A DNA stretch of 20,808 bases. Origin: a virus. Position 1 is the stretch's first letter; each line of letters starts with the position of its first letter. A program made the position numbers and the translations under genes. Shown piece after piece: positions 13,560-13,760 of this stretch. The DNA is taken from the UHGV virus genome UHGV-0102213. The stretch is one strand, 5' to 3'. Below the pieces are notes generated by a model. It saw nothing but the letters and a program-made list of their open reading frames with translations, searched no databases and had not been told where the DNA came from.

Positions 13560-13760
13560 CAAAACAGAGAAAGGAAACGACAGAGGCCCAAAAGTTCGTT
13601 TTCAGCACCTGTCGTTTCCTTTCTTTTCAGAGAGTGTTTTAAATAAAAACATGAAGTTACGGAGAAGAAGAACGGAAACGCCTTAAACCGGAAAATTTTC
13701 ATAAATAGCGAAAACCCGCGCGCCTGCCGCCCCGTAGCCTGTCAGATCGCCGGAAAGGAC
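13560..13760 (-). other. cos packaging site (cosB, cosN, cosQ region)
   Basis: Directly upstream of Nu1 the minus strand reads ...GGGTCCTTTCCGGCGATCTGACAGGCTACG-GGGCGGCAGGCG-CGCGGGTTTTCGCTATTTATGAAAATTTTCCGG... This is collinear with the lambda right-end/left-end junction as I recall it. The 12-nt cosN core is at about 13721..13732. Confidence 0.75.

What the first reader, a model, noticed from the sequence alone, without database searches (positions are those of the whole stretch)
13715..13740. cosN core differs from the canonical lambda cohesive-end sequence while flanking cos sequence is conserved
Lambda reads GGGCGGCGACCT-CGCGGG at the left end as I recall it. Here the minus strand reads GGGCGGCAGGCG-CGCGGG, with about 4 substitutions inside the 12-nt core. 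The flanks (cosQ side ...CCGGCGATCTGACAGGCTACG and cosB side CGCGGGTTTTCGCTATTTATGAAAATTTTCCGG...) and the Nu1/A terminase are nearly lambda-identical. This implies either a phage with a different cohesive-end sequence recognised by a lambda-type terminase, or a mutated and possibly packaging-defective cos in a cryptic prophage.
Basis: partly seen in the sequence, partly recalled or inferred. Interest (0 to 1): 0.4.

Follow-up and report, generated by a model that had tools for sequence, protein, structure and literature searches.

The report
Natural cohesive-end variant of lambda-like prophage
The phage "sticky end" here really differs from lambda's at four bases, but all four lie in the half of the site already known to tolerate change, so this looks like an ordinary rare allele rather than a broken or exotic packaging site.

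Summary
The window's minus strand 13732..13721 reads GGGCGGCAGGCG where lambda reads GGGCGGCGACCT. There are four substitutions, at cohesive-end positions 8, 9, 10 and 12, and no indel.

Everything else needed for lambda-type packaging is conserved:
- the left half of cosN (bp 1-7);
- the CG dinucleotides flanking both nick sites;
- cosQ;
- 57 identical bases from bp 13 to 69, including R3 at lambda spacing;
- Nu1 (2 aa differences from lambda) and gpA (6 conservative differences);
- 17 intact head and tail genes.

Feiss et al. 2015 (PMC4669245) report that bp 7-12 tolerate mutation, that natural differences there are common (N15/phiD326 at 9 and 12; Gifsy-1 at 8, 9 and 11), and that lambda TerL cuts cosN-N15 as well as its own site.

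The exact allele is rare. It occurs in 8 of 5426 complete E. coli genomes and 4 IMG/VR contigs, against 4289 genomes with the canonical core. It recurs with two kinds of left flank and three kinds of cosB. Its right half, AGGCG, also occurs as GGGCGGAAGGCG in 155 genomes and in the deposited phages PhiR46_1 and YDC107_1.

No gpA residue co-varies with the allele.

Verdict: a functional natural cosN allele. The phenomenon is known and interest is low.

The parts
13721..13732 (-). cosN cohesive-end segment, the 12 bp between the two nick positions: GGGCGGCAGGCG. Inferred to give a 5' 12-nt overhang.
   Evidence: Aligns without gaps to lambda bp 1-12 and to the annotated 'cos site' of DE3. The single lambda HSP ends exactly at window 13732, which is lambda bp 1.
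13721..13725 (-). Variant right half, cohesive-end positions 8-12: AGGCG where lambda has GACCT. Position 11 (C) is unchanged.
   Evidence: The same 5-mer occurs in L121-L130.
13733..13734 (-). Conserved CG dinucleotide flanking the top-strand nick.
   Evidence: Sequence. Its conservation in lambda-like phages is stated in PMC4669245.
13719..13720 (-). Conserved CG dinucleotide flanking the bottom-strand nick (bp 13-14).
   Evidence: Sequence and PMC4669245.
13756..13762 (-). cosQ candidate GGGTCCT, the packaging-termination element, at the same distance from cosN as in lambda.
   Evidence: Ungapped alignment of the 60 nt left of the nick with the DE3 prophage junction. PMC4669245 states that cosQ is a highly conserved 7-bp site. 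Its exact identity as GGGTCCT comes from my memory of Wieczorek and Feiss 2001.
13684..13720 (-). Spacer between cosN and cosB (lambda bp 13-49, the I2 region), identical to lambda.
   Evidence: One search shows no mismatch from bp 13 to bp 69.
13668..13683 (-). cosB R3, the Nu1 binding site that positions gpA for the bottom-strand nick: AGGCGTTTCCGTTCTT. It is identical to lambda bp 50-65 and at identical spacing.
   Evidence: R3 coordinates come from PMC9026076.
13544..13667 (-). Rest of cosB (I1, R2, R1). It is lambda-like, with a 1-nt deletion and a cluster of changes between R2 and R1.
12998..13543 (-). nu1, terminase small subunit, 181 aa. It has 2 differences from lambda (S73R, L132I).
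11098..13023 (-). A, terminase large subunit with the endonuclease, 641 aa. It has 6 conservative differences from lambda.

Best explanation
This is a functional lambda-type cos site carrying a rare natural allele of the right half of cosN.

Inferred mechanism, from lambda biochemistry:
1. Nu1 binds R3 in cosB.
2. That binding holds gpA at a fixed distance.
3. The bottom strand is therefore nicked between bp 12 and 13 largely regardless of the bases at positions 7-12.
4. The sequence-sensitive left half (bp 1-7), the CG dinucleotides at both nicks and cosQ are all unchanged.

The phage should therefore make 12-nt 5' overhangs reading GGGCGGCAGGCG. Both ends of a chromosome come from the same allele, so they anneal normally.

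The allele reached this prophage by the usual lambdoid mosaic recombination, with a junction at cosN itself.

What is shown: the sequence conservation, the allele distribution and the absence of terminase co-variation. What is inferred: cleavage and virion production.
For: Conservation of the packaging apparatus:
- The changes are confined to positions 8, 9, 10 and 12. Bp 1-7, both flanking CG pairs, cosQ, bp 13-69 and R3 at lambda spacing are conserved.
- Nu1 differs from lambda at 2 residues and gpA at 6 conservative residues.
- Across 8 AGGCG and 53 non-AGGCG gpA sequences, no column separates the two groups. The window's gpA is 99.7% identical to that of MS 196-1, which has the canonical core.

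Published genetics:
- PMC4669245 says mutations in bp 7-12 have minimal effect. C11G gave no phenotype, whereas G2C cut yield about 10-fold. Both results are cited to Xu and Feiss 1991.
- The same paper says the asymmetry depends on cosB (Hang et al. 2001) and that right-half differences are common in nature (N15/phiD326 at 9 and 12; Gifsy-1 at 8, 9 and 11).
- It also reports that lambda TerL gives equal yields with cosN-lambda and cosN-N15.
- N15's end, GGGCGGCGTCCG, was confirmed in its record.

Intactness:
- The window is colinear with lambda bp 1-13745 at 97.0% identity. All 17 genes from nu1 to M are full length.
- The late and lysis genes are intact.

Recurrence of the allele:
- It occurs in 4 IMG/VR contigs and in 8 complete E. 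coli genomes at 9 places. Every one of the six E. coli copies retrieved (from SE11, EC21Z-048, EC71, APEC E19035, 729_021014_1_4 and NCCP 15734) sits next to annotated intact terminase and portal genes.
- It is found with two left-flank types and three cosB types. Both left-flank types also occur with the canonical core.
- GGGCGGAAGGCG, which has the same right half, is in 155 genomes and in the phage records PhiR46_1 (propagation host ECOR13) and YDC107_1.
Against: - No experiment or virion-end sequence exists for this exact allele.
- It combines four changes, including position 10. I saw no published natural or mutant data for position 10, because Xu and Feiss 1991 and Vahanian et al. 2017 are not held in the library.
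- The exact allele is absent from 50,697 phage records and from the GTDB species representatives. It is about 500 times rarer than the canonical core in E. coli. That rarity would also fit a mildly deleterious allele.
- The isolate status of PhiR46_1 is inferred from its GenBank record only. No paper describing it was found.
Confidence: 0.85

Rival explanations
1. The four changes impair nicking of the bottom strand. This would be a weakened or dead cos in a prophage that has only recently stopped being packaged, so its genes have not yet decayed.
For: - The allele is rare: 8 of 5426 genomes against 4289 with the canonical core.
- It is absent from all phage records.
- It has more simultaneous changes than the published natural variants (2-3 positions).
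- It changes position 12, next to the nick.
Against: - Position 12 is also changed (T to G) in N15, which lambda TerL cuts normally.
- The allele is shared by prophages with different flanks, different cosB and different small terminase subunits, in unrelated strains from several countries. A dead site would be unlikely to spread this way.
- All neighbouring genes are intact.
- The same right half occurs in the deposited phage genome PhiR46_1.
Confidence: 0.08
2. The variant is selected, not neutral. A cohesive end that mismatches the canonical one at 4 of 12 positions would act as an incompatibility group. Chimeric chromosomes whose two ends come from different co-resident lambdoid prophages would cyclise poorly.
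For: - A 2-base cohesive-end mismatch already lowers viable yield about four-fold (PMC4669245).
- E. coli genomes carry up to 8 canonical cos copies.
- Some strains carry several alleles together: NCCP 15734 has both CAGGCG and AAGGCG.
- The five variable positions sit between invariant flanks.
Against: - No direct evidence exists.
- The flank invariance is partly forced by my search patterns.
- The allele is rare, which is not what a selected advantage predicts.
- Relaxed constraint on bp 7-12 explains the data without invoking selection.
Confidence: 0.05
3. Sequencing or assembly artefact, or a miscount by the first reader.
For: None found.
Against: The same 26-mer occurs in 4 IMG/VR contigs. 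A 33-nt exact match that spans the whole 12-bp core occurs at 9 places in 8 independent complete E. coli genomes, and the six of those copies that were retrieved read the same core and right flank. Coordinates and bases were verified directly.
Confidence: 0.01

Closest known systems
Phage lambda cos (cosQ-cosN-cosB) with Nu1/gpA terminase
   Same: - cosQ, cosN bp 1-7 and 11, both flanking CG pairs, and bp 13-69 including R3 and its spacing.
- Nu1 is 98.9% and gpA 99.1% identical.
- The whole head and tail module is colinear at 97.0%.
   Different: - Cohesive-end positions 8, 9, 10 and 12 (GACCT becomes AGGCG).
- A 1-nt deletion and several changes between R2 and R1.
- A different lysis and moron region to the left of cos.
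Natural right-half cosN variants of lambda-like phages: N15/phiD326 (GGGCGGCGTCCG), Gifsy-1 (positions 8, 9, 11), LLS/mEp213 (GGGCGGCGCGCT)
   Same: - Variation is restricted to bp 7-12, with the left half and flanking CG kept.
- T12G is shared with N15.
- Lambda TerL is shown to cut the N15 variant normally.
   Different: - This is a different allele with four changed positions, including position 10.
- Here the terminase is lambda's own. N15's TerL is only 65% identical to lambda's.
Escherichia phage PhiR46_1 (PV340565) and the Ravinvirus YDC107_1 (CP025712): GGGCGGAAGGCG
   Same: - An identical AGGCG right half.
- A near-identical right flank.
- gpA differs from the window's at 5 of 641 residues.
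   Different: - Position 7 is A instead of C.
- This sister allele is about 20 times commoner in E. coli: 155 genomes against 8.

Membership tests
lambda-like cos site (12-nt 5' cohesive ends) | cosN left half GGGCGGC (bp 1-7) conserved | tested here: met
   Identical to lambda bp 1-7.
lambda-like cos site (12-nt 5' cohesive ends) | CG dinucleotides flanking both nick positions, 12 bp apart | tested here: met
   ACG|...|CGC at window 13733-13734 and 13719-13720. The criterion comes from PMC4669245.
lambda-like cos site (12-nt 5' cohesive ends) | conserved 7-bp cosQ upstream at lambda spacing | tested here: met
   GGGTCCT at 13756-13762 aligns without gaps with lambda/DE3. The exact cosQ sequence is from memory.
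lambda-like cos site (12-nt 5' cohesive ends) | cosB with R3 at a fixed distance from the nick, plus I1, R2 and R1 | tested here: met
   R3 (bp 50-65) is identical and at the same offset. R2 and R1 are present.
lambda-like cos site (12-nt 5' cohesive ends) | adjacent lambda-family terminase genes nu1 and A | tested here: met
   181 aa and 641 aa, 98.9% and 99.1% identical to lambda.
lambda-like cos site (12-nt 5' cohesive ends) | virion DNA actually ends in 12-nt 5' overhangs at this site | not testable with these tools
   Needs virion DNA end sequencing or in-vitro cleavage.
lambda-like cos site (12-nt 5' cohesive ends) | canonical cohesive-end sequence GGGCGGCGACCT | tested here: not met
   Four of 12 positions differ. 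PMC4669245 defines the group by 'significant identity', not identity, and lists variants in bp 7-12 as members.
defective or cryptic lambdoid prophage | disrupted or missing packaging, head, tail or lysis genes | tested here: not met
   17 of 17 lambda genes from nu1 to M are full length without frameshifts. Q, holin, lysozyme and Rz are intact. Only 20.8 kb is visible, so the rest of the prophage is untested.
terminase with altered nuclease specificity co-evolved with its site | gpA substitutions that segregate with the cosN allele | tested here: not met
   No alignment column separates the 8 AGGCG from the 53 other gpA sequences.

The most novel reading that the evidence does not exclude
The right half of cosN is a polymorphic compatibility tag. 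Alleles such as GACCT, AGGCG, AAGGCG and AGACG define groups of lambdoid phages whose ends cannot productively join with those of other groups. This would limit the formation of hybrid chromosomes among the many co-resident prophages of one cell. The window would carry a rare member of that polymorphism.
Probability: 0.05. Interest if true: 0.4.

Novelty: new member of a known kind. Interest (0 to 1): 0.1.

Why it matters
It matters little beyond bookkeeping.

- It adds one more natural allele, with four simultaneous changes, to the documented variability of bp 7-12 of lambda-type cohesive ends. Here the allele is paired with an essentially wild-type lambda terminase.
- In practice, tools that locate cos by matching GGGCGGCGACCT will miss such prophages.
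- Cosmid or in-vitro packaging logic based on lambda ends should not assume a single end sequence.
- The allele would be a convenient natural substrate for testing how far bottom-strand nicking is sequence-independent.

Tried and rejected
- **Co-variation between gpA and the cosN allele.** None was found in 61 sequences. The idea of an altered-specificity nuclease was rejected.
- **Exact 26-mer scan of the GTDB species representatives.** Zero hits, so the host species could not be named this way.
- **Exact allele in 50,697 phage records.** No match. Only the position-7 sister allele was found, using the distant mode.
- **Full-text search for the 12-mer.** Only unrelated primer hits came back.
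- **Vahanian et al. 2017 (Virology 509:140).** This is the survey that would say whether the allele is already listed. It is not held in the library.
- **Source paper for the PhiR phage series.** Not found.
- **Five exclusion-pattern scans of IMG/VR for non-canonical right halves.** Only 10 contigs turned up: AGGCG 4, AGACG 3, TGACG 1, AACCT 1, GACCG 1. The fixed flanks in the pattern bias this census, so it does not measure overall variability.
- **HNH endonuclease near cos, as in HK97-type systems.** The neighbour MS 196-1 has one upstream. The window has none among the ten ORFs scanned, and lambda-type terminases do not need one.

Full report
**1. Observation**

On the minus strand the window reads GGGTCCTTTCCGGCGATCTGACAGGCTACG / GGGCGGCAGGCG / CGCGGGTTTTCGCTATTTATGAAAATTTTCCGG.

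I checked lambda's sequence against records rather than memory. The DE3 record annotates GGGCGGCGACCT as 'cos site', and NC_001416 starts with it.

An ungapped comparison from the first base of the cohesive end shows mismatches at lambda bp 8, 9, 10 and 12 only. After that there are 57 identical bases, bp 13-69. The substitutions lie at window 13725, 13724, 13723 and 13721.

**2. Surroundings**

- Window 1-13732 is one colinear match to lambda bp 13745-1 at 97.0% identity.
- All 17 lambda proteins from Nu1 to M are encoded full length, at 87-100% identity with no frameshifts.
- Nu1 differs from lambda at S73R and L132I.
- gpA differs from lambda at N9D, S21A, I69V, T107A, T151S and I459V.
- R3 (bp 50-65) is identical to lambda's and at the same distance from the nick.
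- cosQ (GGGTCCT) and both CG dinucleotides flanking the nick positions are in place.
- To the left of cos lie intact genes for Dam, NinG, a phosphatase, Q, a P21-type holin, a DUF1327 protein, lysozyme, Rz and a KilA-N protein.

Nothing in the visible 20.8 kb suggests decay.

**3. Distribution of the allele**

Exclusion patterns then found every non-canonical right half that has these fixed flanks: AGGCG 4, AGACG 3, TGACG 1, AACCT 1 and GACCG 1.

*Complete E. coli genomes (5426).* Each count comes from a 43-nt megablast query whose 28-nt seed must span core positions 3-12.

| Core | Genomes | Places |
|---|---|---|
| Canonical GGGCGGCGACCT | 4289 | 8143 |
| GGGCGGCAGGCG (this window) | 8 | 9 |
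| GGGCGGAAGGCG | 155 | 166 |

*Other collections.*
- The exact allele is absent from 50,697 phage records and from the GTDB species representatives.
- The sister allele GGGCGGAAGGCG is present in Escherichia phage PhiR46_1, whose record names ECOR13 as host, and in the Ravinvirus YDC107_1.

**4. Mosaic context**

- The window's left flank is identical to that of the E. coli MS 196-1 prophage, which carries the canonical core.
- Six of the nine E. coli AGGCG copies were retrieved and read. All six have a different left flank (GGTGGGGAGGCCTTCCACG), as do the two IMG/VR contigs from one genome (L122, L124), one of which matches the retrieved SE11 copy over the 120 nt compared. Among the retrieved copies there are three different cosB types. 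The three copies not retrieved are known only from a 33-nt match that reaches 3 nt into the left flank.
- A variant of that second flank also occurs with both cores, in L036 and L123.
- In the first 100 nt to the right of the nick, the window has 2 mismatches to the AGGCG prophage of APEC E19035 and 10 to MS 196-1. Further into gene A it is again closest to MS 196-1.

The core allele therefore reassorts relative to both flanks, with a junction at cosN. This is ordinary lambdoid mosaicism. It argues that the allele travels in viable phages.

**5. Terminase co-variation**

I aligned 61 gpA sequences taken from loci where the cos core is known (8 AGGCG, 52 GACCT, 1 GACCG). No column separates the groups. 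The window's gpA is 99.7% identical to that of MS 196-1, which has the canonical core. The variant site is therefore served by an unmodified lambda-type nuclease.

**6. What is known**

Feiss et al. 2015 (PMC4669245) state the following:
[quoted passage not shown] N15 and phiD326 differ at positions 9 and 12, and Gifsy-1 at 8, 9 and 11.
- Many mutations in bp 7-12 have minimal phenotype. C11G had no effect, whereas the symmetric G2C cut yield about ten-fold (Xu and Feiss 1991).
- This asymmetry reflects the anchoring of TerL by TerS bound at cosB (Hang et al. 2001).
- The CG pairs at the nicks and cosQ are conserved.
- Lambda TerL gives the same yield with cosN-lambda and cosN-N15.

I confirmed N15's end, GGGCGGCGTCCG, in its record. 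It shares the T12G change with the window. Another natural allele, GGGCGGCGCGCT (LLS and mEp213), is reported in PMC12315714.

A dedicated survey, Vahanian et al. 2017 (Virology 509:140), exists but is not held in the library. I therefore cannot say whether this exact allele is already listed.

**7. Mechanism**

Steps inferred from lambda biochemistry:
1. Nu1 binds R3.
2. gpA is held so that the bottom strand is cut between bp 12 and 13 irrespective of the local bases.
3. The top-strand nick depends on the conserved left half.
4. Termination uses cosQ plus cosN.

The resulting overhangs are 5'-GGGCGGCAGGCG and its complement. Eleven of the 12 bases are G or C, against ten in lambda. The site keeps 10 of 16 bp in two-fold symmetry, the same number as lambda although at partly different positions. 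Both ends of each chromosome derive from the same allele, so cyclisation is unaffected.

**8. Rival explanations**

- *Impaired or dead cos.* This cannot be excluded without experiment. The arguments against it are the intact genes, the recurrence of the allele in different mosaics and strains, the published tolerance of bp 7-12, and the presence of the same right half in a deposited phage genome.
- *Selected role as an end-incompatibility tag.* This is conceivable, because a 2-base mismatch already costs about four-fold in yield. It is otherwise unsupported.
- *Artefact.* Excluded.

**9. Verdict**

This is a variant cohesive end used by a lambda-type terminase, and not a defective site.
- The phenomenon is already documented and mechanistically explained. 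The specific allele is rare and appears to be one more member of a known series.
- Interest is low.

Noticed in passing
window 13733-13860 versus 13632-13732; loci L132 and L128: The pattern of similarity switches exactly at cosN. The left flank is identical to the MS 196-1 prophage, which has the canonical core. The core plus the next 100 nt are closest to AGGCG-type prophages (2 mismatches against 10). This fits either a recombination junction at cos or the resolution of a chromosome packaged between two different cos sites.
   Followed up: partly
window 13585-13600 (lambda bp 134-147, between R2 and R1): There is a 1-nt deletion and a cluster of substitutions relative to lambda in the loop between the R2 and R1 terminase-binding repeats. 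R3, R2 and R1 themselves are conserved.
   Followed up: no
window 14087-14838 (-): A 165-aa KilA-N + ORF11CD3 protein and an 85-aa ORF with no Pfam hit occupy the position between Rz and cos where lambda carries bor and neighbouring genes. The same pair is present in E. coli MS 196-1.
   Followed up: partly
window 3616-4035 (gpG) and 6149-6532 (gpFI): These are the two most diverged morphogenetic proteins: gpG is 87.1% identical to lambda, and gpFI 88.6% with 4 gapped positions. The rest of the module is 96-100% identical.
   Followed up: no
L125 and L124 (E. coli SE11); H78 and H154 (E. coli NCCP 15734): Single strains carry several non-canonical cos alleles. SE11 has two GGGCGGCAGGCG prophages with different cosB and small terminase subunits. 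NCCP 15734 has one GGGCGGCAGGCG and one GGGCGGAAGGCG prophage.
   Followed up: partly
L133, L134, L136 (AGACG) and L137 (TGACG): Further right-half alleles, GGGCGGCAGACG and GGGCGGCTGACG, occur in IMG/VR contigs with a different cosB (GAGCCTTTTTCGGGTGCTGGTGG...). With AGGCG they form a series [A/T]G[G/A]CG that keeps C11 and has G12.
   Followed up: no
window 13699-13905 (-): A 68-aa GTG-initiated ORF runs across cosQ and cosN. It is probably spurious. In MS 196-1 a 58-aa hypothetical protein is annotated on the opposite strand nearby.
   Followed up: no
window 19335-19889 (-): A phage Dam-type N6-adenine methyltransferase lies in the nin region, upstream of NinG, the phosphatase and Q.
   Followed up: no
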